From: an uncultured Oscillospiraceae bacterium
GTDB taxonomy: Bacteria > Bacillota > Clostridia > Oscillospirales > Oscillospiraceae
Direction of reading: 5' to 3'
Assembly (NCBI GenBank): GCA_947629245.1
Contig: CANRDC010000001.1
Span: forward strand, 93,667-157,666
DNA length: 64,000 nt
Of this stretch, positions 4,240-57,128 are shown in pieces. Below the pieces are notes generated by a model. That model did not search any database, was not told where the DNA came from, and saw only the letters and a program-made list of their open reading frames with translations. Each line of letters opens with the position of its first letter. Positions within the stretch are counted from its first letter, which is position 1. The position numbers were made by a program, and so were the translations under genes.

Positions 4240-5253
4240 ATGGGCAGAGTAGGTGGCGGTTCATCTGGTGGTGGTCATTCTTCTGGCGGTGGTCACTCCT
4301 TTGGAAGCAGGTCTTCTGGGGGTCATTACGCCAGTCATTCAAGCGGAAGTTCGCATCGTGTGACAGGCTACTCGCACAGCAGTAGCCCTACTTATTCTCG
4401 CGGAGGCAGTTATGACTTTTACAGCTATCGCAGTCCTCGGCGATATTATGGCAACACCTATGTCTACGACTCTCGGCCTGGGTGCTTAACCTCAATCGCC
4501 GGTACAGCAGTGGTCGTTGTAATCTTCGTTGCTGTCGCCATTGCTATTATTGTTGCCTCTATTGCGAGGGGTGGCAATAGTAATGTTCCAGCAAGCACGG
4601 TCAACCGGGAGAAGTTGAACGATGGCAACGCCTATATCAACGACTGTATTATCGACGAGCTCGGCTGGTTTGATAATGTCTCTAAAGTCGAGCACACCTT
4701 GCGTGACAACTTCTGGGAAAAGACCGGTGTCCAGCCCTTCATCTACTTGAGGGACTATGACCCCAGTCTCTACAGTGAGAGTCAGAAACAGGATTGGGCT
4801 GAGAACTATTACGACACACATTTCAAGAATGAGAACATCTTCTTGTTTGTGTACTTCGCCGAGAGAGACACTGATAACGATGTTGGCTACATGTGCTATG
4901 TTAATGGCTATGGTGCATCAACTGTTATGGACTCTGAAGCTGTCGACATCTTCTGGACTTATATTGATAACTACTGGTACAGCGATTTGTCGACAGATAG
5001 CGTGTTCATCAACGTGTTTGATAAGACAGCTGACAGGATAATGCAGAAGACCACAACTAAGACCGACGTGTTCATGTGGATTGCTATCGCCGCGGTTATT
5101 GGCGTCGCCGGGTTTGTGATTATCAAAATCATGAAAACGAAGAGACAGCATGACGCCGAGAAAGCCGCAGAGACGGTCCGTATTCTGAACACACCGCTTG
5201 ACCAAACCTCTGATGAAGAGGAAGCGGAAGACCTGGCGGATAAGTGGAGTTAA
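4240..5253 (+). CDS. Membrane protein with a Gly/Ser/His-rich N-terminus, two TM helices and a TPM-like (TLP18.3/Psb32/MOLO-1-type) domain
   Basis: GGGSSGGGHSSGGGHSFGS low-complexity head. TM helices AGTAVVVVIFVAVAIAIIVASI and VFMWIAIAAVIGVAGFVIIKI. The region between them (IIDELGWFDNVSKVEHTLRDNFWEKTGVQPFIYLRDYD...IFLFVYFAERDTDNDVGYMCYVNGYG) follows the TPM domain pattern. Confidence 0.5.
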   Translation: MGRVGGGSSGGGHSSGGGHSFGSRSSGGHYASHSSGSSHRVTGYSHSSSPTYSRGGSYDFYSYRSPRRYYGNTYVYDSRPGCLTSIAGTAVVVVIFVAVAIAIIVASIARGGNSNVPASTVNREKLNDGNAYINDCIIDELGWFDNVSKVEHTLRDNFWEKTGVQPFIYLRDYDPSLYSESQKQDWAENYYDTHFKNENIFLFVYFAERDTDNDVGYMCYVNGYGASTVMDSEAVDIFWTYIDNYWYSDLSTDSVFINVFDKTADRIMQKTTTKTDVFMWIAIAAVIGVAGFVIIKIMKTKRQHDAEKAAETVRILNTPLDQTSDEEEAEDLADKWS

Positions 5254-5308: not shown

Positions 5309-5995
5309 ATGGCATCTATTCTTTCACGTTTCAAGGACATCATGTCTGCTAATGTGAACGCATGGCTCGACGGCAAGGAGGACCCGGAGAAGATGATTGA
5401 CCAGAGCCTTCGCAATCTCCGCGAGCAGCTGGCCGAGGTCAAGGAGCAGACCGCCGGCGTTATCGCTAATCAGAAGCGGGACGCCAGGGCTCTCAGTGAC
5501 GCCGAGGCGGAGGTCGCCAAGCTGAACACGGCCGCCAGAAATGCTGTGGCTGCCGGCGCCGATGACGACGCCAGGAAGTTGCTCCAGCGTAAAGCTGACA
5601 TCGAGGGCAATCTGCCCAACCTGCGGGTGAACGCTGACGCCAGCAAGAAGAACGCCGAGCAGATGCGCCAGATGTACGAGAAGCTCAGCTCCGACATTCA
5701 GACGCTGGAGACCCGGCGCAACACCGTGAAGGCCACCATGGCCAACGCTAAGGCGCAGGAAGCTGTCAACCGCGCTGTGAGTAATACGAAGGACTCCGGC
5801 AGTATCGAGGCCTTCGAGAAGTTCGAGCAGAAAGCGCAGGAGATGCTCGACAGGGCGCAGGCCGAGTCTGAGCTCGGCGGTATGCCTGGACTGAGCGACG
5901 TTGCCGTCCTCACTTCCAAGTGGTCCGGCACTGGTGCTACTGATAGCGCCGTGGAGGACGAGCTTGCTAAGCTCAAGGCTGAGCTCGGTAAGTAA
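5309..5995 (+). CDS. pspA: PspA/IM30/Vipp1 family (phage shock protein A-like, ESCRT-III fold) protein
   Basis: The N-terminus MASILSRFKDIMSANVNAWLDGKEDPEKMIDQSLRNLREQLAEVK aligns by eye to E. coli PspA [43 protein letters not shown]. All-helical coiled coil, with C-terminal ...DELAKLKAELGK like PspA ...EQLAQLKAKM. AAGGAGG RBS. Confidence 0.88.
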   Translation: MASILSRFKDIMSANVNAWLDGKEDPEKMIDQSLRNLREQLAEVKEQTAGVIANQKRDARALSDAEAEVAKLNTAARNAVAAGADDDARKLLQRKADIEGNLPNLRVNADASKKNAEQMRQMYEKLSSDIQTLETRRNTVKATMANAKAQEAVNRAVSNTKDSGSIEAFEKFEQKAQEMLDRAQAESELGGMPGLSDVAVLTSKWSGTGATDSAVEDELAKLKAELGK

Positions 5996-9950: not shown

Positions 9951-10003
9951 CTTTAATGTATGGCAGGTTCTACAATCTTTTAGAAAATGAGGTGTCATAT
10001 AAA

Positions 10004-10364
10004 ATGATTGAACTGCCATTCGCTGAGGCATCTGATGTTCTTGGCGACATCAAGGAGAGGCTTAAGGCTATGAAGCCTACGCCTGTCAACTTCTATCCGT
10101 ATCTCAAACGTGTTCTAAATGAACAGTATGAGAAATTGAAACCGCAGTATCCTAAGGATATCAAAATCCCTAAGGATACGGCGCATCTGCTCCGACAAGA
10201 CTTTGAGCCGGAGTACGTTATTCACTTGGAGGACGTTCCTCGCATGGAGGACGGAACTCCTATGTGGTTCGAGACATCTGAAGACCAGTGTTGGCTCCGT
10301 TTTGGGTACAATAATATGGATGCAAGGTTTATCTCGGACCAGAAATTGAGCATGGAGTACATAC
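10004..10364 (+). CDS. FtsK/SpoIIIE-type ATPase, exon 1 (N-terminal region, no TM helix)
   Basis: The ORF is open from 9956. ATG 10004 has GAGGTG 9 nt upstream. The frame runs into GTGCG at 10365 and stops at 10397-10399 if unspliced. Confidence 0.6.
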
Positions 10365-11036
10365 GTGCGACTTGTTCCACTATAAGTGCAGTAGCATGAA
10401 GTGTGGCATAGCTATACTATGAACTGATAATCCGAACAGTGAAGTGAATGGGTAACGCCATGAAGCACTGTGCATGATACTCCTGCATGCGACAATAAAT
10501 GTCGTGTGAAGCCAGGTAAAGTCGGCTAAACATCGCCTTGCATTTAGCATGAAACCTGTCACATGGCGGCGTGATGGATAAGCCGGTGCTCTATAAATCA
10601 TCTATGATGAGTATGTGATGTAATCACTGACGAACCTGAGAACTAAAGGGTCCAAGCTCCAATGCATAGAAATGTGCAGAACTCGTGCGGTAAAGTAAGA
10701 GGTGTGTATGGTATGAAATCCGCTGTAGTCGAAGCCGAAAGGTAGCGGGACTACATGTGCGAGTTGACCCACATCAGGCATCTAAGGGTGAATATGTACA
10801 GATAGGATTATCGGAACAAGGAAAGGTATCGAGCCGACAGGTAACTTGACGAAGAAAATAAGCAAGTGTGTCGATACTGAAAAGTAGAGGTCGAACCGGT
10901 GAAGCTTCTGTAATGAAAGTGGAGGAATGGCCTCAAGTCAGATGAAAGTCTGATGGAACGCCGTGTGCGGTGAAAGTCGCATGCACGGTGTGGAGCCGGG
11001 GAAAAGCTTGAGGTAAATTACTTAGAGCTTACCTAT
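10365..11036 (+). ncRNA. ORF-less group II intron (self-splicing ribozyme) interrupting the FtsK-like gene; boundaries approximate
   Basis: 5' GUGCG at 10365-10369. Domain V lies at 10959-10990: lower helix CGCCGUGU/GCACGGUG, 2-nt AU bulge, upper helix GCGGU/GUCGC, GAAA tetraloop, CGC catalytic triad. It is near-identical in layout to the consensus GAGCCGUAUGCGAUGAAAGUCGCACGUACGGUUC. A domain VI-like helix with bulged A follows at 10993-11030. The intron ends ...CUAU. Joining C10364 to G11037 restores the reading frame. Confidence 0.8.
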
Positions 11037-12802
11037 GGCTATACTCATTTTTAGGTGGCTCTTCCGGTCACGGAAAGTCCGTTACACTCAACTCTATGCT
11101 CGCCGCATTGTGCTATGAGTACGCTCCGTGGGAGCTGAATGTCGCCATGTCTGACGCCAAGATTATCGAGTTCAAGAAATATGGCGTCGGACATCTTATT
11201 CCGCACATAACTACCATCGCCGCAACTGCTGATGCTGACTTTGTGGTCTCCGTCTTGCAGAAGGCGTACGATGAAATGAACATGCGCGCCAAGATATTCG
11301 GTAACGTCGGTGCTTCTAACTTGAAGTCATTTAGAAAGAAGACCGGGCTCGCCATGCCTCGCTACCTAATCCTTATGGACGAGGTTGAGTCTACTTTCAA
11401 GATGGCTGGCAAGAAAGCGCAGAAAATCGCTGACCTTATCGACGGCTTCGCCAGGCTTGGCCGCGCCGCCGGTTTCCACATCTTCATGGCCACGCAGAAT
11501 ATGTCCTCTGATATACCGAAGAGCGCCATCGGTCAGATACGCAATCGTATGTGCCTTGGTGCTAACCCTTCGGTGTCCGAGGCTATCCTTGGCAACGGTG
11601 GCGCTTCTGAGAATGTCGGTCGTATTGGCCGCCTCATAGTCAACACTGAGGTCATGAACGGTGGCAATACATTCCCGCATAATATCAAGTATCAGACTCC
11701 CTACCTCTCGGACGATGACTTCGTAGTTGAGATGAAAGAGCTCGAAGCTATGGGCCAGAAGGTCGGGTACAAACCTTCGCTCTCCTTCTATGACGAGGAG
11801 GCCATCGACACTGTCGAGGAGTATCAGCCTATCATTGACAAGGCTCTTGCTCGTATGGCCAAGGTTGGTGAAATAGATGCGCATAACGTTCCGGTTTGCC
11901 TGGGACATCCGGCATTCGTTACGGAGGACCCTGACTCACTGCTGAAGATTAATTTCACTCATAAGGACGTGGAGAATGTTATCATCTGCTCAACGCAGTC
12001 GAGTCATGTTGCGGCACATCTTCATAACATCGCCTACTCTGTGCGTGGCTCGTTCACTGAGTTGCACTACTCAAGCGATGTCGACATGTTCCAGTACACC
12101 CATATGGCCGTCGCTAAAGAGGAAGCGCGTGATGCTTCTCAACCTCCGCTCATTAGTTTGGAAGCTCTCGTGCGTAAGAGGCTGTTTCTTACTTATGCCG
12201 ACAACTTGGCGAAGAATGAGGGCTCTATTTCTTACACCAGAGATAAGGTCGAGGAGATTTTCAAGAAAGACGGAATACCGCAGGAGGCTTGGGGTAACTC
12301 ACTGATGTGCAGAAGAGCCGTCGTGTTCTATGCAGTTCAGAAAGACCCAGCACATGCCTCTATGTGGAAACCTGTGTCCGCCATGTTTAGCAACTTCAAG
12401 GATTACTACGACGAGTGCGTGAAGTATAAGTCTGTTGTCGACCCCATCACCGTTGATAAGTTCGGCAAGGCGATGTACTTCCTCGGCGACCTGTCTAAGA
12501 TTATTGGATATGGTCGAGACTCGAGTAGCAAGATGGTCGGCAACCTAAAGAAGTTACTTCAGGACTGCAACAGGGCGGCTGTCGTCTTCGTCCTCTATAC
12601 GCGAAGCATGGAAGGATTGAACGACTTGCAGTCAGGGCTGCGTTACGCAATCTTTGACTCTCCGGACTCTAAGGACTGGGCTCGTCTCAGGACTGAAGCG
12701 CCGAGTTCGTTGCTGGACTCGCTCGCTGTACTCTATGACTCTCTGGACCCGATAAATCCCCAGAAGAAGTTCAAACGCACTTTGTTGCAACGCACTATCT
12801 AA
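11037..12802 (+). CDS. FtsK/SpoIIIE-type DNA translocase ATPase, exon 2 (P-loop onward, plus a ~370-aa uncharacterised C-terminal region)
   Basis: The frame upstream of the tracked Met reads LYSFLGGSSGHGKSVTLNSML (Walker A), open only back to 11012. Walker B is RYLILMDEVES. RAAGFHIFMATQNMSSDIPKSAIGQIRNRMCLG matches FtsK RAaGIHLilATQRPsvdVitg.IKaN.p.RiaF. Confidence 0.82.
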
Positions 12803-13719: not shown

Positions 13720-15349
13720 AATAACTGGAGAGAGAACCATCGACGAGTACCTCGATGCGCTCAACACTTCCACAACAATCTATATAGACAAACAGCGCCT
13801 TGAGAACGCTGTAGTGCAGTGCCGCCATCTTAGTCGGGACTATGAGTGGTTGTGCCTGCTTGAGATGAACACAGACTGCCCCGGCTGTTACTCCCGTCTC
13901 TCTAAGGAGAACATTGTGGACTACTTAGAGAACATGGGCGTAACATTTGATAAGAGATATACGTCTCGTGGTGGCACACCCTCTCTCGACATGGCGAAAG
14001 TAATCGACCCACTCATTGAGAAGGGTAAAGCCGTTGAGATGCTGACAATCTATAAGCAGTACCGTTCAGTGTCATCATGGCTCAGCAATCTGAACTCTCT
14101 GCTTGACGCTGAGGACGACGTGTGTATGAATGAAGATGGCCGTCCAATCGCCATATATCATACGACACTCTCACAGCGCGATAACCTCCGCGTATACACC
14201 AGTAACATCAATGTTCAGGGTATCCCTCGTGAATACTCTAACATTGTGACCTCGCCGTCAACGGATTATCACCTTGCATGGTGCGACTACCCGCAGGCTG
14301 ACTGGCGTTTCGCATACAACTTGTTCATACGTGGCGACGATAACTTCGACATCATGCGTCGTTGCACTGACGCCTACGAAGGACTCGCCAGGCTTGTCGA
14401 GGGTGACTCATTTGACCCTGAGAAGTTTAAAGAGCGCCGGAAGGAATATAAGGTCAACTGTCTTAAGACCTTCTATGGTTCCAACGTGAACAAGCCAGTG
14501 CCAAACGCCATGCGTAAGTATTTCATGAGCCGCCCCAAGTACAAGCTGTTTGTGGATACACTCGACGAGTTGTGGCGTCTGCACATGCCTGTTCCTATAA
14601 CTTCTTACTTCGGCTACGAGCAGAGCTTACCCGAAGGTAAGTATCCATCGGCCTTTGTGAGTAAGGGGCTCAACACTCCTATTCAGACGTTGACCTCTCA
14701 CGTTGTCAATGAGACAGTGCTCACACTTCTTGAGAGGTTCTGGGAACGCGGCTACACGAAGGACGATATAAACATCTACTACACCAGGCATGATGAGGCT
14801 ATCTTTAGGTTTAAGGATACTATCCTGCCTGATGCGTGGATTTTCAAGGATTGTTCTCAAATCCATATCGACGGGTTCACTCCTATTGACCTTGAGTTCC
14901 ATTTCGGCAACTACTATAAAGAGGAGGACGAAGCTCTCACCACTACGATATCCGAGCTGATGAACGCACATGACGACATGCTTCACACCTATCCTGCTGG
15001 TGAGATACATGAGTACTTCCCGGTGCCAACAATCAAGCGAGTGTTCCTAAAGCTGTTCTCCTTTGAGGACAAGCCAGGATATCTCTACTATTGGTACGAC
15101 TATGAAACTGGTGAGTTCTATAAGGACTACGACCCAGACCCTGATGTGCGCGTAGGTATCGTCAATGTGCTTGAGCGCGGTATACTTAAGGCGATTGACG
15201 AGCCTGACGACGTACTCATTCAGACCGGTGACCATATCGAGTGGCTCGGAACAGCAACTGCTTCTGATGGCCGCCAGGTCTTGTTGAAAACCCATCTTAA
15301 AGATGACTCAGAATTGGTGGTGGCAATGCGTGGCAAAGAACAGGAATGA
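13712..15349 (+). CDS. Family A DNA polymerase (polymerase domain only)
   Basis: Motif A is LAWCDYPQADWRFAY (compare DYSQIELR). Motif B is RRKEYKVNCLKTFYGS (compare R..AK..NFG..YG). Motif C is YYTRHDEAIF (compare HDE). No 3'-5' or 5'-3' exonuclease motifs seen in this ORF. Confidence 0.8.
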   Translation: MLRITGERTIDEYLDALNTSTTIYIDKQRLENAVVQCRHLSRDYEWLCLLEMNTDCPGCYSRLSKENIVDYLENMGVTFDKRYTSRGGTPSLDMAKVIDPLIEKGKAVEMLTIYKQYRSVSSWLSNLNSLLDAEDDVCMNEDGRPIAIYHTTLSQRDNLRVYTSNINVQGIPREYSNIVTSPSTDYHLAWCDYPQADWRFAYNLFIRGDDNFDIMRRCTDAYEGLARLVEGDSFDPEKFKERRKEYKVNCLKTFYGSNVNKPVPNAMRKYFMSRPKYKLFVDTLDELWRLHMPVPITSYFGYEQSLPEGKYPSAFVSKGLNTPIQTLTSHVVNETVLTLLERFWERGYTKDDINIYYTRHDEAIFRFKDTILPDAWIFKDCSQIHIDGFTPIDLEFHFGNYYKEEDEALTTTISELMNAHDDMLHTYPAGEIHEYFPVPTIKRVFLKLFSFEDKPGYLYYWYDYETGEFYKDYDPDPDVRVGIVNVLERGILKAIDEPDDVLIQTGDHIEWLGTATASDGRQVLLKTHLKDDSELVVAMRGKEQE

Positions 15350-16049
15350 CTCTATCTTTGACTTAAAGCTCATGGACGTCTACGAGAAGTATGGCCTGGC
15401 TAAGTTCATAGACGTCTGCTCTGAGCTTCTCGATATGCGTGACACCACTGGAACCAAGAAGCCTCAGGTTAACGGAGAAGTTTGCGAGATAGTGTTACAT
15501 GTAATGACTGAGCACTATCTCGCAACTAAAGGCAAGAAGGGCCAGGTGTTCCACTCCCTTGTCCTTGGTAATCCTAATAATCCAAATTCCTCATTTAGAA
15601 CAGAGCTCGACGTTACACTTGTAACTCCTTACTTCTGCATAACTGGTGAGTGCAAGTCGTACGCCGGCGACGTCAGAGCAACTGGCGAAGGAAAGCTGAG
15701 ACATAACGGATACCCAGAGACTGATGTTGCTAAGCAGTCTAAGGTTCACGTTAACGCACTAATTCCTTACCTTAAGATGTACACAAAAGCGAAGGTCGGC
15801 GTGGCCTCACCGCCTGTCGGAATGTTTTGCTTTCTGTACTCTAATGGAACAATCACTGACAACAGGGTTGACAGCGCCAAAGATGAATTACCTATACTGA
15901 CGATTAAGAGCCTGTTCAGCTATTACGACAGGCTATTCTCTCAGTATAGGAAGGAGGTCTATGATGTCGAAAAAGCCGGCAAAGCGTTCCAAGCCATGGC
16001 GGACTCGAGAGTTCTACATATCCAGCACGCTAATTATCTTGGTTATTAG
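15303..16049 (+). CDS. Hypothetical protein, possible PD-(D/E)xK nuclease fold
   Basis: ELDVTLVTPYFCITGECKSY resembles D...(E)xK. Start uncertain: it overlaps the end of the polymerase gene, and ATG 15372 is an alternative. Confidence 0.35.
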   Translation: MTQNWWWQCVAKNRNDSIFDLKLMDVYEKYGLAKFIDVCSELLDMRDTTGTKKPQVNGEVCEIVLHVMTEHYLATKGKKGQVFHSLVLGNPNNPNSSFRTELDVTLVTPYFCITGECKSYAGDVRATGEGKLRHNGYPETDVAKQSKVHVNALIPYLKMYTKAKVGVASPPVGMFCFLYSNGTITDNRVDSAKDELPILTIKSLFSYYDRLFSQYRKEVYDVEKAGKAFQAMADSRVLHIQHANYLGY

Positions 16050-17088: not shown

Positions 17089-17868
17089 ATGCCTGGCGAC
17101 ACATTGAACCAGCTCTACAATGAGCTGGTAGAGCAGGTCTACACCGACGATGAATACTCCCAGCGATACTACTTGTCTATGATTGAAGACCAGAGAAAGA
17201 TTGCTGTAGACTACTTGATGATGCGTAAGTGTATGTTTATACCCAATAATGACTACATCACACATTATTTAGGGGTCAGAGCACAGACATATTCTTGTGG
17301 GCTCTATGATGGCGATAACTGCATGTGGGCGCTCTTCATGGTGGCTCCCATTCTTGATTTGGTCGGAGACGTAGTCGGCATCGTAGGCTGGGACGCCGAG
17401 AATAAGCGTAAAGAGCTTGAAGAAGGCGAAAAGGGACTTCCCATGTATAAAGTCTCAAGCAAGTTCGTATTTCCGAGGGAGAGGTACTTTCTCTCGGATA
17501 TTGAACTCCTGCGACAGGAGTTTAGCAAACGAGTCATATTCATCGTTGACGGTGTCTTCGACTCTATCTCCTTAAACTATCATGGTATCCCAGCAGTTAG
17601 TCTGCTGGGTTCTTCCGTGTCCCCGGAAGTCTTGTACTTTCTCAGATGGTACAAATACATCTATGTAGTGCAGGACAATGATAGTGCAGGAATGTCACTC
17701 TATGCCAGATTGGCTAAGGCATTACCGAGGGTATATCGCGTAGTACAGAACAAGACAAAGGACATTGAGGAATTGCTCAGGACCGATGGGCTGAATGGTC
17801 CTGTGACAAAGCAGTTACTCGATACTTTGAACAACCCTGTCTGCGCTGATGTAAGAATAAAGATATAA
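17089..17868 (+). CDS. DnaG-type primase catalytic (Toprim) domain protein, no zinc-finger domain
   Basis: APILDLVGDVVGIVGW (compare PI.D..G.vvGF.GR). MYKVSS (compare KYlNS). IFIVDGVFDSISL (compare EG..D). YVVQDNDSAG (compare DgD.AG). Confidence 0.7.
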   Translation: MPGDTLNQLYNELVEQVYTDDEYSQRYYLSMIEDQRKIAVDYLMMRKCMFIPNNDYITHYLGVRAQTYSCGLYDGDNCMWALFMVAPILDLVGDVVGIVGWDAENKRKELEEGEKGLPMYKVSSKFVFPRERYFLSDIELLRQEFSKRVIFIVDGVFDSISLNYHGIPAVSLLGSSVSPEVLYFLRWYKYIYVVQDNDSAGMSLYARLAKALPRVYRVVQNKTKDIEELLRTDGLNGPVTKQLLDTLNNPVCADVRIKI

Positions 17869-28271: not shown

Positions 28272-30135
28272 CAATGTAACCATTCTGGACGTCGAAGAGA
28301 GCGACATTCCTCGCTTCTTTCTCGACAGGGATAAGAAGCGACTTTGCGAGAACATCATCGCAATGGTTCGTCACAATAAAGAACTTGAGAACCCACGCCT
28401 GCCTGTTGTCTTGAAGGCTGTTGGGTTTGAACCTGTGTTTGAAAAAGCACTTGCAAGCTACAATATTTATTGGCTTGTGCCTGGGTTTAAGCCAAAGCCT
28501 GATGCCGAGGTAAAGACAACAATCAGCATCAACTGGCTTGGTGCTGTCGTCACTGAGGCCATGCTTCCCCTTTATGAGGAAGACCTCGACGGGTCTAAGG
28601 AAGACCTCGGCATAATGCGTAAGATAAACGATTTCAAGATGAACTATGAGGTTGAAGATGTTGTAGTTCTTCTCTGTGGAAGCGACTCGACTCTCATAGA
28701 GAAAGCTTGGACATTGTTTAGAGATGACCCCGAGCTGTCACTCATTAGAGCATTTGCTCCAGAGAAAGTAATTCGTAAGACAAGCGTCGTCAGCGGGGGC
28801 CTTGACATCGGTGTCTATGCCCAGCGCATGTTTGAGTATCGTGACAGTGACGTGTACGATATTCATCTTCTACGCAGTGTGCTTAAGGATATCGACACCG
28901 AGATTACTCAGAATGGAAAGCACGTTTTACAGATAATCTCCTCAGACGGTTTGAAGGCAGAGCAAAAGTTGCTCATGCTCTATTGCGTCTTGAAGTATCG
29001 TTTGCCGCCTCCGCTCATACATACGTTCAAGAACGACTATGTCAACAACAGTTTGATATACCCACTTGGTAAACTGTCGCTCTATGAACGTATAATGTGG
29101 CTTAGGGACTTGCCGCAGATTGTCGGGTACATTGGCGAACATATGCATTACACATGCACCTGTCTCGTGGACGCCAAGATTTACCCCGGCATACACAACA
29201 TGTATGCTGTACGTATTGACCCAACCACTGGGGCGTTCAAGGCTTCTCGAATGAGTGAAATCGGTGTCGCAGACGGTCCCGTCAAAGCTTTCATCAGTAA
29301 GGGTCTTGAACCCTGGCTGTTCAAGGGAACGCTCCTTGACTATAAGATGCTGTTCAAAGGAACTGGTAATCCTATAACGAGTGAGCCTCAGACCGCTGGA
29401 CTTGTTATCAGCGGCGGCGATGCAATGGCCCATGACTATAACATGGACAATGCTCTCATTGACCTGTTCACGCAGATTGACGAGATGTCCGTTCAAGACA
29501 CTGGTGAACACCTGTATCTATCCATAAAGAACACAGTGCTATCTAAGTACACGAAGGATTGCTTTATCCTCATGTACTGTCCTGAGGCTTCGGCAGTCCA
29601 CTGCCAGATGACCTCCGAGTACATAGGCGTTGTTAGGAAAACACTCGACGAAGATAAGTTCCCATGCTTCATTGATAGCGGGCTTGAGCTCGCTATTGAG
29701 CAAGGCGAGAAAGCCGCCAGGCAAGAGGAGATTCTTCGTAGTGCGCAGACAACAACTGCGCTAACAGTGACTTCGCCTTATCAGTCTTTTAGTGGTGCTC
29801 TTGCAAGTACCGTCCAAACTTTGCGTCCAGCTATCGACCTTGAGGTCGCTCTGGCGATGAACCTGCTTAGTCCGTTTAAGTCCGGTCTTGGATATTACGA
29901 CATGTCCCTTAGGTGCATGAAGAACATCGTGCCTATTGTGACGACTCCTGACTCTCCGTTGTATGACGACCCAGAGCTCTTGAAGCATCTGTCATTAACG
30001 AACATCAGGAAGTCGAATAAGAAGATTTCCAAGGACACTACGATTAACAGCTTCGGGACGCTCGCTGCATCCGGGGATGAAAATCCCGGAATACCTGTTA
30101 CAATAGAGGCTTTCAAGGGGTGCAAGTTGCTATGA
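28258..30135 (+). CDS. Hypothetical protein (625 aa)
   Basis: AGGAGG 8 nt upstream of ATG 28258. No recognisable motif. Confidence 0.6.
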   Translation: MENNNNVTILDVEESDIPRFFLDRDKKRLCENIIAMVRHNKELENPRLPVVLKAVGFEPVFEKALASYNIYWLVPGFKPKPDAEVKTTISINWLGAVVTEAMLPLYEEDLDGSKEDLGIMRKINDFKMNYEVEDVVVLLCGSDSTLIEKAWTLFRDDPELSLIRAFAPEKVIRKTSVVSGGLDIGVYAQRMFEYRDSDVYDIHLLRSVLKDIDTEITQNGKHVLQIISSDGLKAEQKLLMLYCVLKYRLPPPLIHTFKNDYVNNSLIYPLGKLSLYERIMWLRDLPQIVGYIGEHMHYTCTCLVDAKIYPGIHNMYAVRIDPTTGAFKASRMSEIGVADGPVKAFISKGLEPWLFKGTLLDYKMLFKGTGNPITSEPQTAGLVISGGDAMAHDYNMDNALIDLFTQIDEMSVQDTGEHLYLSIKNTVLSKYTKDCFILMYCPEASAVHCQMTSEYIGVVRKTLDEDKFPCFIDSGLELAIEQGEKAARQEEILRSAQTTTALTVTSPYQSFSGALASTVQTLRPAIDLEVALAMNLLSPFKSGLGYYDMSLRCMKNIVPIVTTPDSPLYDDPELLKHLSLTNIRKSNKKISKDTTINSFGTLAASGDENPGIPVTIEAFKGCKLL

Positions 30136-32513
30136 CAAACGACATCAATCTCATGTCCCTCGCTAATGCGGGGGACAACCCTTTGCCGAAGGAAGAGGAA
30201 GTAGTCCTTGACCTTGGTGGAGGAGACACGCCGCCATGGGACGAGGGTCCTACGACTTCTGGCGAAGCGACAGACTTTGAAGAAGAAACGCTGGAAATAT
30301 ACAAGAAGGCTGAGAGGTTTAAGAAGCTGAAGCTTCTCTCAGGTAACACAATACCTGGCGACCTTGAGGACTATGTTGACAAGACTTACGGAAAGCTTGG
30401 TCGCCAGCGTCTGCTCCTTGCTAAATACGTCATGCGGGTTATGCGATACAACACTTCGCCTGACGTGATGTTGATGCTTGCATCAACTAAAAGGGCGAAG
30501 GTCGTGATTGCCACTGCAGGTGCAGGTAAAACCACTTCGTTACAGGTTCAGATACTGATTGACAAAATGCTCGATAAAGCACTTGGTACCAATGAACTCG
30601 TTCCGGAGCTTGTCGAGGGTACAGCTGTAACCATGCCGCGTATCCTATATCTCAACTACAATAAGCACAACGTCAAGCCTATCGAGGACCGGCATACAGC
30701 TGTCGTGGCGGCACTCAATAAAACATTGAAGCCTGCCGATAGGATTGATGACTCTATCGAGTCTTCGACTGTTCACGCCTTTTGTCATAAGTGGCTGACC
30801 GCTTTCTCTCACGACATTGAGTTGCCTGAGCTTCAAGTAATCTCAGACGAGGATAAGACTAAAGTCTGGACAGCTATTATTACCCCACGATGGAAGAAGT
30901 TCTATGGGGACAATCAGGTGTGCAACGTCGAGTACACCGTACTCGATGAACTTTATACCTATAAGGTTGAGTCAATGCTGGACTGGGACGAATTCTTCAA
31001 CACAGCTAAGTTCATCGACTCTGAGCTTAAGGAAGAGTTCGTGAAGTCATGCATTAAGAAGTACGACTCCATGAAGCGCCAGATGAAGTTGATGGACTTC
31101 ACCGACTATCTCGTCTGGACCATTGAGACCCTGCAAAAGTATCCTGAGTTTAAGAGGAAACTGCAGGAGCGCTATCGCCTGATAATTGCAGACGAGAACC
31201 AGGACTTCACTCGACTGATGAACGAGCTTCTTCTTGAGCTCTACGACCCTGATGTCAATCGCCTTGTTGTCGTGGGTGACCCAGACCAGACGCTCTACGA
31301 GTTCAAGGGTGTGTCGCCTGATAATGTGGTCAATCTAATGGAGAGACTGCGTGAGGCCGAGCTCCTCGGTCTTGATACGAACTATCGCTGCCCTGATAAA
31401 ATTGTCGAAGGTGCCAAGAAGATATTGGACCTCAACGTCCTGCGCTTCGAGAAACCTATCAACACTGTTAGGACTGGTGGGGAGTTCATATGTCACCCGC
31501 TGGCTATTTCGTCCTCCGAGGAGCAAAGTCGCCAGGTTATCCAGCTCCTCAAGAGAATGGGTTCATCGGAGTGGTCGCACACCGTCATTGCCTATCGGAA
31601 CAATCAATCGTCAGTATTCATTGGCGAGGAGTTGTTCTATGAGGGTATCCCGTTTAAGATACTCGATGATAGACGACCGTTCAACAACAATGTGTTCCGC
31701 CAGCTCAATCAGGCCATTAAGGCTCTAAAAGAGAAAGATAACTTCGAGCTGAATAAGCTATTGTATCGGTTCATGCCTGTGACCCGCGGTGACTGGGAGA
31801 AAGTCTTGGAGCTGAATAGACAGGCAAGGCGCAACCACTTGCACGACCTGCTCATACCCTACAGTGAACTTCCGAAAGGCACTGCGGAGGCGATGCGCTC
31901 GCTTATCCGTATCTCCGAGGTTGTTGACTCAGCAGCTGTCTGTGACTACATCGGGCGCCTTGTGGAACTATACCGTCTTTACTACTTCAACTTCATGTTG
32001 CAGTCAGCGAACCCCATTGCACCTGAGAAGTCTATGGACGCCATGTATCTTGAGCGCGCCTTGAAGTTCTTCAACCGTCAGCTCACTTGGGATTACATGC
32101 AGAAGGAGCTTGTCGAGAGAAATGTGGACTCCGAGTTCGGCGTTACACTCTCTACGTTCCATGGGCTGAAAGGGCTGGAGTTCGACCATGTAATCGCCAT
32201 TGACTTCTCTGAGTCACTGTTCCCGAACTTCGCCAGCATTGAGCAGAAGTACAAACCCAATACTGCAATTGCTGAGAAAGAAGCGGAGAACAGGCTGTGC
32301 TATGTCCTCGTGACACGTGCCATAAAGAACATGCACATGTTCTATCCAGAGTCCGACCCATCAATCTATGTATCCATTCTGACGAAGGATAACGCCGTGT
32401 CGAAGCCGAGTTCAGATATATCCAATCTGGACCTCGGAGCGGCAACTTCGCCATCAACTGTAATGACGTCTAAGGCTGACTTCTTGAGTAAACTTCTGAA
32501 CGGTAGGAGGTAA
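30132..32513 (+). CDS. UvrD/Rep/PcrA-type SF1 DNA helicase
   Basis: Motif I VIATAGAGKTTS. Motif II LIIADENQDF. Motif III VVVGDPDQTLYEFKG. Motif IV LDTNYRCP. Motif V LSTFHGLKGLEFDHV. Motif VI RLCYVLVTRAIK. Confidence 0.85.
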   Translation: MTNDINLMSLANAGDNPLPKEEEVVLDLGGGDTPPWDEGPTTSGEATDFEEETLEIYKKAERFKKLKLLSGNTIPGDLEDYVDKTYGKLGRQRLLLAKYVMRVMRYNTSPDVMLMLASTKRAKVVIATAGAGKTTSLQVQILIDKMLDKALGTNELVPELVEGTAVTMPRILYLNYNKHNVKPIEDRHTAVVAALNKTLKPADRIDDSIESSTVHAFCHKWLTAFSHDIELPELQVISDEDKTKVWTAIITPRWKKFYGDNQVCNVEYTVLDELYTYKVESMLDWDEFFNTAKFIDSELKEEFVKSCIKKYDSMKRQMKLMDFTDYLVWTIETLQKYPEFKRKLQERYRLIIADENQDFTRLMNELLLELYDPDVNRLVVVGDPDQTLYEFKGVSPDNVVNLMERLREAELLGLDTNYRCPDKIVEGAKKILDLNVLRFEKPINTVRTGGEFICHPLAISSSEEQSRQVIQLLKRMGSSEWSHTVIAYRNNQSSVFIGEELFYEGIPFKILDDRRPFNNNVFRQLNQAIKALKEKDNFELNKLLYRFMPVTRGDWEKVLELNRQARRNHLHDLLIPYSELPKGTAEAMRSLIRISEVVDSAAVCDYIGRLVELYRLYYFNFMLQSANPIAPEKSMDAMYLERALKFFNRQLTWDYMQKELVERNVDSEFGVTLSTFHGLKGLEFDHVIAIDFSESLFPNFASIEQKYKPNTAIAEKEAENRLCYVLVTRAIKNMHMFYPESDPSIYVSILTKDNAVSKPSSDISNLDLGAATSPSTVMTSKADFLSKLLNGRR

Positions 32514-32518
32514 CAACA

Positions 32519-34012
32519 ATGACTGTCATGGAGTATATAAACTCTGACATGTTTACGCCTGTCTACCAGAATAAGTTGCCGGAGGCCAAGTCGGCGTCAA
32601 TAAGCGCAATATGTAAGGAGCTCTACTACACCATCAAAGCCGGAGAGAAAATCTTCATCTATGGCGATTACGACATGGACGGCTTCTGCTGTAACATGGT
32701 GTGGGACGAAGTTCTATCTACCCTCTACTCTGTCGTTCCGGAGCATTTTCAGTACGGCAGACGCCAGCACACTGTCGACAGTGATATTGTCGAACAGGTG
32801 AGAAAGTCTTCTGCCAGAGTCGTAATCATCTGCGACTCTGGCTCTGGACGAGAAGACAAGACAGTAATCGACAGGCTTCGCATGATGGGCAAAACTCCGA
32901 TTGTAATTGACCATCATGTGTACGCCGGAGATTATGTAAAAGACTTGGACCATTACCTGATGTACAATGCCTATGAAGAACGTGGGATACTTGGCGGGCA
33001 TGAGATTTCCGGAGCCTATGCTTGTCTCCTCGTAGCATCTAATCTATGCGAGCAATATTTTCATCGCACAGTTTCATATAATGCGATGGTCTACGCGCTT
33101 GGCTCTATGTACTCGGACGTAGTCGACATGTCTTCGCCAGTTGGTAGAGCACTCTATAATGCAGTCACTCTCGGCAATATGCCTGGACCTAACTTGTTCA
33201 GAGCACTGAATAAGTGGAACTATCAGTTCACTCGCAGGTTCTTCTCTTACATAATAGGACCAAAGATAAATGCGTGCTTCAGAACTGAGACATATAGATT
33301 GCTCAATCGAGCCATGGCGACGCGGGATAGATACACACTTAACAATCTTTCATCTGAGTTCGATAGTGTTCACGGAGAGTCAAAGAATATCGTGAGCTAC
33401 ACTATTGGATTGTTTGATGTTGAGAAGTATGGCGATATCACTTTCGCCGTGCATGAAATGAACAGCGAAACGGCCGCCCTTCACGTGAGAAACTTTAGCG
33501 GACTTATTGCCAATCAGATTGCCAAGGAAAATAAGTGCGTTGCCGTTGTTACAATCAAAGTCGGAGACATATACTACGGCTCATTTAGGGACTTCTACAA
33601 TCGTAAAATGCTGAACACCTTCAGGGCTTTCTGCAAGGCTGAGGGGCACGACCAAGCGTTTGGCATACAGTTCACTAACATCACGGAGTTTCGTCGCTAT
33701 CTTAGAATACTATCAACACAGCTCGAAACTGGGAGTGCGCGTGATTACACTGTTCTCGCCGGTAGCATGATAAAGGACAAGGACGACGTGGAGACACTCG
33801 CCATGTATAATGAGTACATGAATGTTCAGCCGAGAGTTGACATCACCTATCGTTGTCCATACGCCAGGCTTGTAAAGTCCACATCGTATCGAAAGTTCTA
33901 CGATGTCGGACTTCCATATCAAATCCAATCGACTAACCCTGTAATCGCAGGCTCAAATGTTCTGCTTGAACCCTGTATTTGTAGTGCAGTAGAACTGCGC
34001 TGCGTTGACTGA
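32519..34012 (+). CDS. RecJ-like DHH-family ssDNA exonuclease/phosphoesterase
   Basis: IFIYGDYDMDGFCC (DxDxDG), VVIICDSGSG (D.G) and PIVIDHHV (DHH) occur in the canonical order. Confidence 0.7.
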   Translation: MTVMEYINSDMFTPVYQNKLPEAKSASISAICKELYYTIKAGEKIFIYGDYDMDGFCCNMVWDEVLSTLYSVVPEHFQYGRRQHTVDSDIVEQVRKSSARVVIICDSGSGREDKTVIDRLRMMGKTPIVIDHHVYAGDYVKDLDHYLMYNAYEERGILGGHEISGAYACLLVASNLCEQYFHRTVSYNAMVYALGSMYSDVVDMSSPVGRALYNAVTLGNMPGPNLFRALNKWNYQFTRRFFSYIIGPKINACFRTETYRLLNRAMATRDRYTLNNLSSEFDSVHGESKNIVSYTIGLFDVEKYGDITFAVHEMNSETAALHVRNFSGLIANQIAKENKCVAVVTIKVGDIYYGSFRDFYNRKMLNTFRAFCKAEGHDQAFGIQFTNITEFRRYLRILSTQLETGSARDYTVLAGSMIKDKDDVETLAMYNEYMNVQPRVDITYRCPYARLVKSTSYRKFYDVGLPYQIQSTNPVIAGSNVLLEPCICSAVELRCVD

Positions 34013-56870: not shown

Positions 56871-57128
56871 ATGAAACAGAAACTAATTTATATCGTTGGC
56901 ATTATCTTAGTGGCTGCTATTGTCATTTATTCGCCATTTGAGAGAAAAAACTCAGAAATAGGCGACATACTCAACGACTGGGGTGAACATCAGCAGGAAA
57001 TGTCTGATAAGTTCACTGACCAAGTAGTATCAGGTGCAGAGGGCTCCTGGGTCGGCGAGCATCAAGTCGACGGCTCTAACTGGAGTATTCCTAATATTCT
57101 TCGTCATATCCTGGGGGTAGACAGATGA
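56871..57128 (+). CDS. Small single-pass membrane protein (85 aa)
   Basis: AAGGAG RBS. TM helix LIYIVGIILVAAIVIY. ATGA overlap with the next gene. Confidence 0.5.
   Translation: MKQKLIYIVGIILVAAIVIYSPFERKNSEIGDILNDWGEHQQEMSDKFTDQVVSGAEGSWVGEHQVDGSNWSIPNILRHILGVDR

What the first reader, a model, noticed from the sequence alone, without database searches (positions are those of the whole stretch)
10365..11036. ORF-less group II intron splitting an FtsK/SpoIIIE ATPase gene immediately before its P-loop
ORF 9956-10399 and ORF 11096-12802 are two halves of one gene.
- Reading the downstream frame upstream of its first Met gives LYSFLGGSSGHGKSVTLNSML, the missing Walker A. That frame is open only back to 11012.
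- The ~670 nt in between is non-coding. It starts with GUGCG (10365), the group II 5' consensus GUGYG.
- At 10959-10990 it contains a 32-nt hairpin with the exact domain V architecture: 8-bp lower helix with a CGC catalytic triad, 2-nt bulge, 5-bp upper helix, GAAA tetraloop. Compare the canonical GAGCCGUAUGCGAUGAAAGUCGCACGUACGGUUC.
- A domain VI-like helix with a bulged A follows.
- Joining C10364 (codon phase 1) to G11037 (after ...CUAU) gives an in-frame ...SMEYI-R-LYSFLGGSSGHGKSV...

There is no reverse transcriptase or maturase ORF inside. Splicing must therefore be autonomous or depend on a protein encoded elsewhere. That would make production of the translocase conditional on splicing.
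Basis: partly seen in the sequence, partly recalled or inferred. Interest (0 to 1): 0.85.

Follow-up and report, generated by a model that had tools for sequence, protein, structure and literature searches.

The report
ORF-less group II intron in translocase gene
A 678-base self-splicing-type (group II) intron with no protein gene of its own splits an FtsK-like DNA-pumping ATPase gene just before its ATP-binding loop; it is real and well preserved, but such introns in phages and plasmids of Firmicutes are already documented.

Summary
The finding is real. Window 10365-11042 (678 nt, + strand) is a complete ORF-less group II intron. It matches Rfam RF02004 group-II-D1D4-5 (129 bits, E 5e-28) and RF00029 domain V/VI (55 bits). 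These are the only Rfam hits in the 64 kb.

It splits an FtsK/SpoIIIE-family gene (exon 1 10004-10364, exon 2 11043-12802). More than 85 uninterrupted homologs of about 706 aa all read ...I-H-xFLGGSSGHGKS.

Splicing at 11042|11043 rebuilds the invariant His codon (C|AC) with no indel and gives a 706-aa protein.

Sibling introns sit at the same codon in at least five other diverged alleles. Three full-length copies show 65 compensatory base pairs out of 169. EBS1, EBS2 and the gamma-gamma' pair covary with each intron's own exons and last nucleotide.

Relatives in IMG/VR carry a roughly 630-aa RT/HNH ORF in domain IV, where this intron has only an 18-nt hairpin. No RT gene lies in the window.

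ORF-less IIB introns in Firmicutes jumbo phages and plasmids are published (Merk et al. 2025; Tourasse & Kolstø 2008). This is a new member of a known kind. Splicing itself is inferred, not shown.

The parts
9989..9994 (+). Likely Shine-Dalgarno GAGGTG, 9 nt upstream of the probable true start codon
   Evidence: Read directly from the sequence. Homologs align from residue 17 of the 9956 ORF. Gene callers on identical contigs call a 131-aa exon-1 product.
10004..10364 (+). Exon 1 of the FtsK/SpoIIIE-like ATPase gene (120 codons plus the first base, C, of the His codon)
   Evidence: With exon 2 it gives a 706-aa product, the length of the intron-less homologs.
10353..10358 (+). IBS2 (UGGAGU), pairs with EBS2
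   Evidence: The pairing covaries in the siblings: L008 ACUCCA:UGGAGU, L004 UUCC:GGAA, L055 GGAAA:UUUCC.
10360..10364 (+). IBS1 (CAUAC), the last 5 nt of exon 1, pairs with EBS1
10365..11042 (+). Complete ORF-less group II (IIB-type) intron, 678 nt, 5' GUGCG ... 3' AU
   Evidence: Rfam hits. Boundaries fixed by intron-less homologs and an empty site. No internal ORF longer than 30 aa on the + strand.
10371..10820 (+). Domain I (outer stem CUUGUU/AACAAG); contains the RF02004 match at 10419-10597
   Evidence: RNAalifold on three orthologous introns plus pair counts; Rfam alignment.
10601..10611 (+). 5' half of a candidate GAAA-tetraloop receptor (zeta'), UCUAUGAUGAG
   Evidence: Siblings have CCUAUGG / CCUACGG here, paired with CCUAAGGG. 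The window's U-A replaces their C-G pair. The assignment is an inference from the canonical 11-nt receptor motif.
10656..10661 (+). EBS2 (GCUCCA)
10706..10710 (+). EBS1 (GUAUG) in a terminal loop of domain I
   Evidence: At the homologous loop, five introns each carry the complement of their own 5' exon end: win GUAUG:CAUAC, L004 GGAUGA:UCAUUC, L008 GGAUGU:AUAUUC, L054 CCAGGU:ACCUGG, L055 GGUUAC:GUAAUU.
10779..10790 (+). 3' half of the candidate tetraloop receptor (CAUCUAAGGGUG)
10825..10878 (+). Domain II
   Evidence: helix 20: 5 of 8 pairs compensatory.
10883..10883 (+). gamma nucleotide (A) in J2/3 (GAAAAGUA, 10879-10886), pairs with the last intron nucleotide
   Evidence: This is the only column of the five-intron alignment with pattern A,C,C,A,A. 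That pattern is complementary to the last nucleotides U,G,G,U,U.
10887..10934 (+). Domain III
10937..10954 (+). Domain IV reduced to a 7-bp hairpin with a GAAA loop; relatives carry the RT ORF here
   Evidence: 4 of 7 pairs are compensatory. Relatives L013, L021, L034 and L016 have about 2 kb inserted at this exact point. The insert encodes RVT_1, with an HNH match in two of the three scanned.
10958..10991 (+). Domain V (34 nt): CGC catalytic triad, 2-nt AU bulge, GAAA tetraloop
   Evidence: RF00029 alignment; fold; pair counts.
10994..11040 (+). Domain VI with bulged branch-point A at 11035, 7 nt from the 3' splice site
   Evidence: The bulged A sits 7 nt from the 3' end in all siblings.
11042..11042 (+). 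gamma' (last intron nucleotide, U); the 3' splice site is 11042|11043
11043..12802 (+). Exon 2 (AC completes the His codon; includes the stop codon)
   Evidence: PF01580 FtsK_SpoIIIE E 1e-19 on the spliced protein.
11054..11080 (+). Walker A / P-loop codons GGSSGHGKS; they lie upstream of the first start codon of the downstream ORF (11096)
   Evidence: These residues are invariant in 35 aligned homologs.

Best explanation
Window 10365-11042 is a structurally intact group II intron of the IIB type that has lost its intron-encoded reverse transcriptase/maturase. Domain IV is now an 18-nt hairpin. The intron interrupts the codon of an invariant histidine, four codons upstream of the Walker A loop. 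The gene encodes a 706-aa FtsK/SpoIIIE-family ATPase and lies on a large, unclassified mobile element, probably from gut Clostridia.

Inferred mechanism:
1. The gene is transcribed as one pre-mRNA.
2. Domain I positions the 5' exon through EBS1:IBS1 (GUAUG:CAUAC) and EBS2:IBS2 (GCUCCA:UGGAGU).
3. The 2'-OH of bulged A11035 attacks the 10364|10365 bond.
4. The freed exon-1 3'-OH attacks 11042|11043, guided by gamma-gamma' (A10883:U11042).
5. The exons ligate to ...UACAUAC|ACUCAUUU..., rebuilding CAC (His) and the reading frame ...SMEYIHSFLGGSSGHGKS....

Without splicing no polypeptide can contain the P-loop. Translation of exon 1 ends at a stop at 10400, and the downstream ORF starts after the P-loop.

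What is shown: the intron's identity, boundaries, structure and evolutionary maintenance.

What is inferred: that it splices in vivo, and whether it does so alone or with a maturase supplied in trans by another intron of the element or the host.
For: - Rfam: RF02004 129.4 bits (gathering 34.5) and RF00029 55.1 bits (gathering 40). These are the only hits in 64 kb, even at E<=0.5.
- The spliced protein has more than 90 uninterrupted homologs of about 700-706 aa covering 97% of it. In the 88 that were aligned, the junction reads I-H-xFLGGSSGHGKS with no gap and an invariant His. Only the 11042|11043 join reproduces this.
- The DNA empty site in intron-less L052 reads ...GAGTTCATCC|ATGGCTTC....
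- Sibling introns occupy the same codon in L004/L005 and L008 (full length, both Rfam models). They also occur in L006, L007, L009 and L010 (3' parts).
- In the three-way alignment, 96.2% of cells are paired and 65 of 169 pairs are compensatory. Slid controls give 2-7 compensatory pairs, and 0 of 500 shuffles reach the observed values.
- EBS1 at one homologous loop complements each of five different 5' exons. EBS2 covaries likewise.
- gamma-gamma' covaries (A-U in three introns, C-G in two). It maps to the single matching alignment column, which lies in J2/3.
- The spliced genes of the window and L004 are intact, at 706 and 707 aa. The window protein keeps all 100+ columns that are invariant across 35 homologs.
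- Relatives in IMG/VR carry an RT ORF of about 630 aa exactly at domain IV; Pfam finds RVT_1 in all three scanned and HNH in two.
Against: - There is no RNA evidence; splicing is inferred only.
- No maturase/RT gene was found among the 53 ORFs of 150 aa or more in the window. Bacterial group II introns usually need one in vivo. The rest of the roughly 229-kb genome could not be read.
- EBS1:IBS1 in the window is only 5 bp. A second, non-conserved 7-bp candidate exists at 10611-10617.
- The covariation structure was predicted from the same three sequences it was scored on, which inflates the contrast with the slid controls.
- EBS3/IBS3, expected for a IIB intron, could not be located.
Confidence: 0.9

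Rival explanations
1. The intron is a dead relic. It no longer splices, because it lacks a maturase, and the translocase gene in this genome is therefore a pseudogene.
For: No RT/maturase lies in the intron or in the 64-kb window. ORF-less bacterial group II introns are described as infrequent and generally dependent on a protein for splicing in vivo (PMC2504315).
Against: - Both exons are intact and in frame, and they keep every invariant residue of the family.
- The intron keeps the GUGCG 5' end, the catalytic triad, the bulge, the branch A, and the EBS1, EBS2 and gamma pairings.
- Three lineages that differ at about 30% of intron positions keep 96% of pairs through 65 compensatory changes.
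- The exon-binding sites track exon changes. A decaying relic would not do this.
Confidence: 0.06
2. The intron splices at the reader's 3' site (11036|11037), giving ...EYI-R-LYSFLGG....
For: The join is in frame (672 nt) and follows a ...CUAU sequence.
Against: - It inserts two residues and removes the His that is invariant in all 88 aligned uninterrupted homologs.
- It would put the 3' splice site one nucleotide after the bulged A of domain VI, instead of the 7 nt seen in the Rfam alignment and in all siblings.
- The empty site of L052 fits 11042|11043.
- In the siblings, gamma-gamma' covariation uses the nucleotide homologous to 11042.
Confidence: 0.02
3. The two ORFs are expressed as separate polypeptides that assemble into a split ATPase without RNA splicing.
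For: Gene callers annotate them as two genes. One homolog, L011, is also called as two overlapping ORFs with no intron hit.
Against: - The Walker A codons (11054-11080) lie between a stop at 11009-11011 and the first start codon at 11096, so neither product would contain the P-loop.
- The intervening 678 nt is a full ribozyme under structural selection.
- About 90 homologs are single polypeptides.
Confidence: 0.02

Closest known systems
ORF-less group IIB introns of Firmicutes jumbo phages (Listeria phage LPJP1 vRNAP-beta and terminase introns, Bacillus phage Internexus, Staphylococcus phage PALS_2, Clostridium phage c-st), Merk, Jones & Eddy, NAR 2025 (PMC12350094)
   Same: - Most hit the same Rfam model, group-II-D1D4-5, plus RF00029, and all are assigned to class B in their Table S1 (c-st has a D5/D6 hit only).
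- Sizes are similar at 580-690 nt, and none has an IEP.
- CGC or AGC triad, 5' GTGCG/GTATG/GTGTG, 3' AT.
- All are inserted in conserved genes of large Firmicutes mobile genomes and were validated against intron-less homologs.
- Domain V/VI of LPJP1, c-st, MarsHill and Internexus match this intron at 80-86%.
   Different: - The host gene differs: an FtsK/SpoIIIE-like ATPase, which that paper's text does not mention.
- The host element has no close relative in INPHARED, the IMG/VR subset or PLSDB, and is not shown to be a phage.
- Here the same insertion site is documented in six diverged alleles with covariation.
IEP-containing relatives of the same intron lineage in IMG/VR (e.g. L013, L021, L034, L016)
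   Same: Domains I-III and V-VI align with the window intron, at 69-80% in short stretches of I-III and 83-96% in V/VI.
   Different: They carry about 2 kb in domain IV encoding a roughly 630-aa RVT_1 protein, with HNH in two of three scanned. The window intron has an 18-nt hairpin there.
ORF-less group II introns on Bacillus cereus-group plasmids (B.th.I2 on pAW63; B.c.I7 copies on pE33L466), Tourasse & Kolstø 2008 (PMC2504315)
   Same: These are ORF-less derivatives of RT-encoding introns on large Firmicutes extrachromosomal elements. The authors propose trans-complementation by a full-length copy.
   Different: The intron sequences and host genes differ. No full-length partner has been found here, and the rest of the genome was not visible.
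Ll.LtrB in the relaxase gene ltrB of Lactococcus conjugative element pRS01 (from my own knowledge; Mills et al. 1996)
   Same: A group II intron interrupts a DNA-transfer gene of a Firmicutes mobile element, so that the gene's function depends on splicing.
   Different: Ll.LtrB is class IIA and encodes its own RT/maturase, LtrA. The dependence of conjugation on splicing was shown experimentally, whereas nothing has been tested here.

Membership tests
Group II intron (ribozyme) | Covariance-model match to domain V/VI (Rfam RF00029) above the gathering score | tested here: met
   55.1 bits against 40, E 4.4e-08, full-length model, 10956-11042.
Group II intron (ribozyme) | 5' GUGYG and 3' AY termini | tested here: met
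   GUGCG at 10365 and ...AU at 11041-11042. Siblings end in AG or AA, a deviation compensated at gamma.
Group II intron (ribozyme) | 34-nt domain V with an AGC/CGC triad, 2-nt bulge and terminal tetraloop | tested here: met
   10958-10991: CGC with G.U, AU bulge, GAAA loop.
Group II intron (ribozyme) | Domain VI with a bulged adenosine 7-8 nt from the 3' splice site | tested here: met
   A11035 is 7 nt from 11042, and the spacing is the same in all siblings.
Group II intron (ribozyme) | Six helical domains around a central wheel, supported by covariation | tested here: met
   169 pairs, 96.2% of cells paired, 65 compensatory pairs, against 2-7 in slid controls. Caveat: there are only three sequences, and the structure was predicted from the same alignment.
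Group II intron (ribozyme) | EBS1:IBS1 and EBS2:IBS2 pairing with the 5' exon | tested here: met
   EBS1 complements five different exons at one homologous loop. EBS2 does so in four of five introns.
Group II intron (ribozyme) | gamma-gamma' pair between J2/3 and the last intron nucleotide | tested here: met
   A-U in three introns and C-G in two. Only one alignment column fits, at window 10883.
Group II intron (ribozyme) | zeta-zeta': the domain V GAAA tetraloop docks into an 11-nt-type receptor in domain I | tested here: inconclusive
   A CCUAAG/UAUGG-like motif is present in the siblings. The window has UCUAAG/UAUGA with a compensating pair. The assignment rests on motif resemblance only.
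Group II intron (ribozyme) | Splicing through a lariat, in vitro or in vivo | not testable with these tools
   Needs RNA-seq or RT-PCR, or an in vitro splicing assay.
Mobile group II intron (retroelement with IEP) | RT/maturase ORF in domain IV | tested here: not met
   Domain IV is 18 nt, and the largest + strand ORF in the intron is 30 aa. No RVT_1, GIIM or HNH was found in the 53 window ORFs. So it is a ribozyme-only (ORF-less) derivative, not an autonomous retroelement.
Group IIB subclass | Match to the class-specific D1-D4 model RF02004, which Merk et al. Table S1 equates with class B in all nine phage cases | tested here: met
   129.4 bits against 34.5, over the full 201-position model; class mapping.
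Group IIB subclass | EBS3:IBS3 (coordination loop) pairing with the first 3'-exon nucleotide | tested here: inconclusive
   The only column covarying with IBS3 (A,A,A,A,C) lies inside a helix, at 10488. No credible EBS3 was found.
FtsK/SpoIIIE ATPase family (host gene) | Pfam PF01580 above the gathering score, with Walker A and Walker B | tested here: met
   Spliced protein: 71.3 bits against 24. GGSSGHGKS and LILMDEVE are present. The homolog profile hits the FtsK motor 2iuu at E 2.8e-19.
Bacteriophage (host element) | Capsid, terminase or tail genes | tested here: inconclusive
   - The window holds only replication-type genes plus PspA, T2SSE and ParB-like genes.
- A 658-aa ATPase 6 kb downstream gives only sub-threshold TerL, TraG P-loop and HerA hits.
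- There are no close relatives in phage or plasmid collections.

The most novel reading that the evidence does not exclude
An IEP-less group II ribozyme may have been kept for a long time at one codon of a translocase gene in a previously undescribed family of 190-300-kb Clostridial elements. It has co-diverged with its host gene (intron 67-71% against exon 60-67% nucleotide identity) while keeping every catalytic and exon-binding contact. This would imply one of two things. Either it splices efficiently in vivo without any protein, or it obligatorily uses a maturase from the bacterial host or another intron. The latter would make translocase production, and hence DNA transfer or packaging by the element, contingent on the host's intron complement.
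Probability: 0.15. Interest if true: 0.55.

Novelty: new member of a known kind. Interest (0 to 1): 0.3.

Why it matters
- It corrects an annotation artefact. Databases hold this gene as two unrelated ORFs, of which one lacks the P-loop. The same error affects at least five other alleles.
- It adds a well-documented case, with intron-plus and intron-minus alleles and covariation, to the recently recognised presence of ORF-less group IIB introns in large Firmicutes mobile genomes.
- The multi-allele series gives natural compensatory mutants for EBS1, EBS2 and gamma-gamma'.
- It would be a convenient system to ask whether such introns self-splice in vivo or borrow a maturase.
- It does not change current understanding of group II introns.

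Tried and rejected
2. An alternative EBS1 at 10611-10617 (GUAUGUG, 7 bp with the exon) was rejected. The homologous positions in L004 and L008 do not pair with their exons, whereas the loop at 10706-10710 does in all five introns.
3. RNAalifold's helix between columns 2-5 and 543-546 (the 5' GUGCG with J2/3) was dropped as probably spurious before counting pairs.
4. EBS3 search: the only covarying column lies inside a helix, so it remains unassigned.
5. Search for an IEP:
   - No RT, maturase or HNH was found among the 53 window ORFs.
   - Walking outwards gained only about 6 kb downstream and 1.5 kb upstream, with no Pfam family on record for any called gene there.
6. Relatives of the host protein: none in the IMG/VR subset. 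INPHARED phages and PLSDB plasmids gave only matches of about 30% identity or less, covering under half the protein.
7. Classifying the host element as phage or plasmid left it undecided.
8. PDB sequence searches with the two giant ORFs gave nothing.
9. A combined D1/D2-junction plus domain V pattern gave no hit in IMG/VR. It gave three ORF-less siblings in other genes in JGI/ENA metagenomes.

Full report
**1. What is in the sequence**

- GUGCG lies at 10365-10369.
- An upstream ORF (9956-10399) and a downstream ORF (11096-12802) are in the same frame.
- The downstream frame, read upstream of its first Met, gives ...LYSFLGGSSGHGKSVTLNSML. It is closed by TGA at 11009-11011.
- No + strand ORF longer than 30 aa lies inside the interval.

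A scan of the whole 64-kb window against Rfam gave exactly two hits.
- RF02004 group-II-D1D4-5 at 10419-10597: 129.4 bits, gathering score 34.5, E 4.9e-28, full-length model.
- RF00029 (domain V/VI) at 10956-11042: 55.1 bits, gathering score 40, E 4.4e-08.

A permissive scan at E<=0.5 added nothing. The intron is therefore single in this window, and chance is excluded.

**2. The gene and the exact splice sites**

Joining the exons gives a protein with PF01580 FtsK_SpoIIIE (E 1e-19). It has more than 90 uninterrupted homologs of about 700-706 aa, at 43-75% identity and 97% coverage. A profile of these homologs hits the FtsK motor domain, EccC and conjugative coupling proteins in the PDB.

At the junction, every one of the 88 aligned homologs reads ...(E/D)(Y/F)I-H-xFLGGSSGHGKS, with an invariant His and no gap.
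That is two extra residues and no His.
- The join 10364|11043 gives ...SMEYI-H-SFLGG, which matches exactly.

That site agrees with three other lines of evidence:
- the Rfam domain VI alignment, with bulged A11035 7 nt from the 3' end;
- the siblings, which show the same spacing;
- the contiguous DNA of an intron-less allele, L052...GAGTTCATCC|ATGGCTTC....

The intron is therefore 10365-11042 (678 nt), 6 nt longer than reported.

Homologs and gene callers start at Met17 of the long ORF. ATG 10004 is preceded by GAGGTG. With that start the spliced product is 706 aa, the length of the family.

Neither ORF alone can encode the P-loop. Its codons (11054-11080) lie between a stop and the first start codon.

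**3. Comparative evidence that the ribozyme is maintained**

Six of about 90 protein clusters are truncated at the P-loop. Their contigs carry an intron at the same codon.
- L004/L005 and L008 are full length and hit both Rfam models.
- L006, L007, L009 and L010 begin inside domain V.

On the three full-length copies (intron identity 67-71%), RNAalifold returns a six-domain wheel. After one dubious helix was removed, the counts were as follows:
- 96.2% of pair cells are standard pairs;
- 65 of 169 pairs show changes on both sides;
- slid controls show 2-7 such pairs and 35-40% pairing;
- no shuffle out of 500 reaches the observed values.

The caveat is that only three sequences were used, and the structure was predicted on the same alignment.

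Independent of that prediction, three tertiary and exon contacts covary.

*EBS1.* The loop at 10706-10710 complements the last 5-6 nt of each intron's own 5' exon. This holds for the three orthologs. It also holds for two siblings found in unrelated exons.

| Intron | EBS1 | IBS1 |
|---|---|---|
| window | GUAUG | CAUAC |
| L004 | GGAUGA | UCAUUC |
| L008 | GGAUGU | AUAUUC |
| L054 | CCAGGU | ACCUGG |
| L055 | GGUUAC | GUAAUU |

*EBS2.* The site at 10656-10661 behaves likewise in four of the five introns.

*gamma-gamma'.* The last intron nucleotide is U, G, G, U, U across the five introns. Exactly one alignment column is A, C, C, A, A. It lies in J2/3 (window 10883), where gamma is expected.

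Domain V (10958-10991) has the CGC triad with a G.U, a 2-nt bulge and a GAAA loop. The siblings have a CCUAAG/UAUGG-type receptor motif in domain I. The window's version carries a compensating U-A pair. I treat this zeta-zeta' assignment as an inference.

**4. ORF-less status and lineage**

Domain IV is an 18-nt hairpin at 10937-10954. Relatives found in IMG/VR through a domain V pattern align with domains I-III and V-VI. They carry about 2 kb exactly at domain IV. That insert encodes a roughly 630-aa protein. Pfam finds RVT_1 in all three scanned and HNH in two of them. Its closest solved structures are group II intron RTs.

The window intron is thus an ORF-deleted derivative of an RT-encoding lineage. 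None of the 53 window ORFs of 150 aa or more has RVT_1, GIIM or HNH. The rest of the genome could not be examined. The longest contig carrying the protein is 228,842 bp. Walking outwards gave only a few extra kb.

**5. Distribution**

In a neighbour-joining tree of the host protein, the six intron-bearing alleles sit in six separate places. Each has intron-less nearest neighbours. For example, P0030 is 87% identical to intron-less P0003, and P0076 is 87% identical to P0037.

Intron divergence tracks exon divergence.

| Pair | Intron nt identity | Exon nt identity |
|---|---|---|
| window - L004 | 71% | 67% |
| window - L008 | 67% | 60% |
| L004 - L008 | 67% | 62% |

The copies are therefore old, not recent near-identical transfers. 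The data do not separate an ancient gain followed by repeated precise loss from repeated homing among related elements.

**6. Mechanism**

Shown: identity, boundaries, structure, exon-binding contacts, and purifying selection on both the ribozyme and the exons.

Inferred: standard two-step transesterification. A11035 attacks the 5' splice site, and exon 1 then attacks 11042|11043. This restores CAC (His) and the P-loop frame.

Whether this occurs without a protein or with a maturase supplied in trans is unknown. Trans-complementation has been proposed for ORF-less copies in Listeria phage LPJP1 (PMC12350094). It has also been proposed for copies on B. cereus plasmids (PMC2504315).

**7. Comparison with what is known**

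Merk, Jones & Eddy (NAR 2025) searched phage genomes with the same Rfam models. They found 20 curated phage group II introns, six of them ORF-less. They also found hits in 9,229 IMG/VR genomes.

In their Table S1, every intron that hits group-II-D1D4-5 is class B. The ORF-less ones of 580-690 nt occur in LPJP1, Internexus and PALS_2. The ORF-less c-st intron is also class B but hit only the D5/D6 model. Domain V/VI of LPJP1, c-st, MarsHill and Internexus are the only DNA matches of this region in the phage collection.

ORF-less group II introns on Firmicutes plasmids were described in 2008. This intron passes all the ribozyme membership features I could test. It fails only the feature "encodes an IEP". 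It is a new member of a known kind.

What is new is modest:
- the host gene, an FtsK-like ATPase hit at the His codon four residues before Walker A;
- the multi-allele series;
- the host element.

**8. The host element**

All long ORFs are on the + strand. The recognisable ones are replication and partition genes: PolA-like, clamp loader, Toprim primase, UvrD, RecJ-like, 5'-3' exonuclease and ParB-like. There are also PspA, NERD and a T2SSE ATPase.

The FtsK-like protein has no close relative in INPHARED, PLSDB or the IMG/VR subset. Its relatives in GTDB genomes are in Clostridia:
- an uncultured Clostridia MAG (196-kb contig);
- Lachnospiraceae bacterium 47-T17;
- Clostridium paraputrificum.

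Whether the element is a jumbo phage or a megaplasmid is undecided.

**9. Verdict**

The case is well supported but ordinary in kind, and I score interest at 0.3.

Noticed in passing
window 1-64000 (e.g. 5309-5995 PspA; 15303-16049 NERD; 17089-17868 Toprim; 30120-32513 UvrD; 32519-34012 RecJ-like; 35446-37041 T2SSE ATPase): The window belongs to a large element; related contigs reach 190-306 kb.
- Every long ORF is on the + strand.
- It has its own replication gene set and a PspA/IM30 homolog (E 7.7e-40).
- There are no recognisable virion genes and no tRNA.
- Its FtsK-like protein has no close relative in reference phage or plasmid collections, and its relatives are in Clostridia genomes.
- Phage or megaplasmid status is undecided.
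   Followed up: partly
window 49816-55575 and 57125-63361: Two giant ORFs (1919 and 2078 aa) have no Pfam, PHROG or PDB sequence match.
   Followed up: partly
L054 247-837 (JGI Ga0265298_10073327): A 591-nt ORF-less sibling intron of the same subfamily sits in what looks like another FtsK-like gene. The upstream ORF reads ...LLIVVDE...CTQRNDASVIPG, so the site is different, after the TQR/IP motif. It appears to lack the EBS2 region. A 319-aa ORF of unknown nature follows it.
   Followed up: partly
L053 (ERZ1029884 contig, - strand 4600-5219) and L055 62-812: These are two more ORF-less siblings in unrelated exons. L055 is 751 nt, and L053 is cut at its 5' end by the contig end. L053 sits upstream of ORFs that I only eyeballed as conjugation- or coupling-protein-like and did not scan.
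   Followed up: partly
L006, L007, L009, L010 position 1: Four independent Logan contigs carrying intron-bearing alleles all begin within 5 nt of each other inside domain V. This suggests assembly-graph breaks at the conserved domain V sequence. Multiple group II introns sharing this domain V would then be present in those samples, though not necessarily in the same genome.
   Followed up: no
L011 22-2102: One homolog (P0093) is called as two overlapping ORFs (22-459 and 456-2102) with no Rfam intron hit. This could be a frameshift, an assembly error or a genuinely split gene.
   Followed up: no
L004 3043, L008 3022, L007, L009, L010 (intron 3' ends): The sibling introns end in AG or AA rather than the usual AY. 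In the two full-length cases (both ending in G), the change is compensated at gamma (C instead of A in J2/3).
   Followed up: yes
window 10375-10420: A 46-nt hairpin-containing insertion near the 5' end of domain I is present in the window and in L004, L054 and L055. It is absent from L008, so it is a dispensable peripheral element.
   Followed up: no
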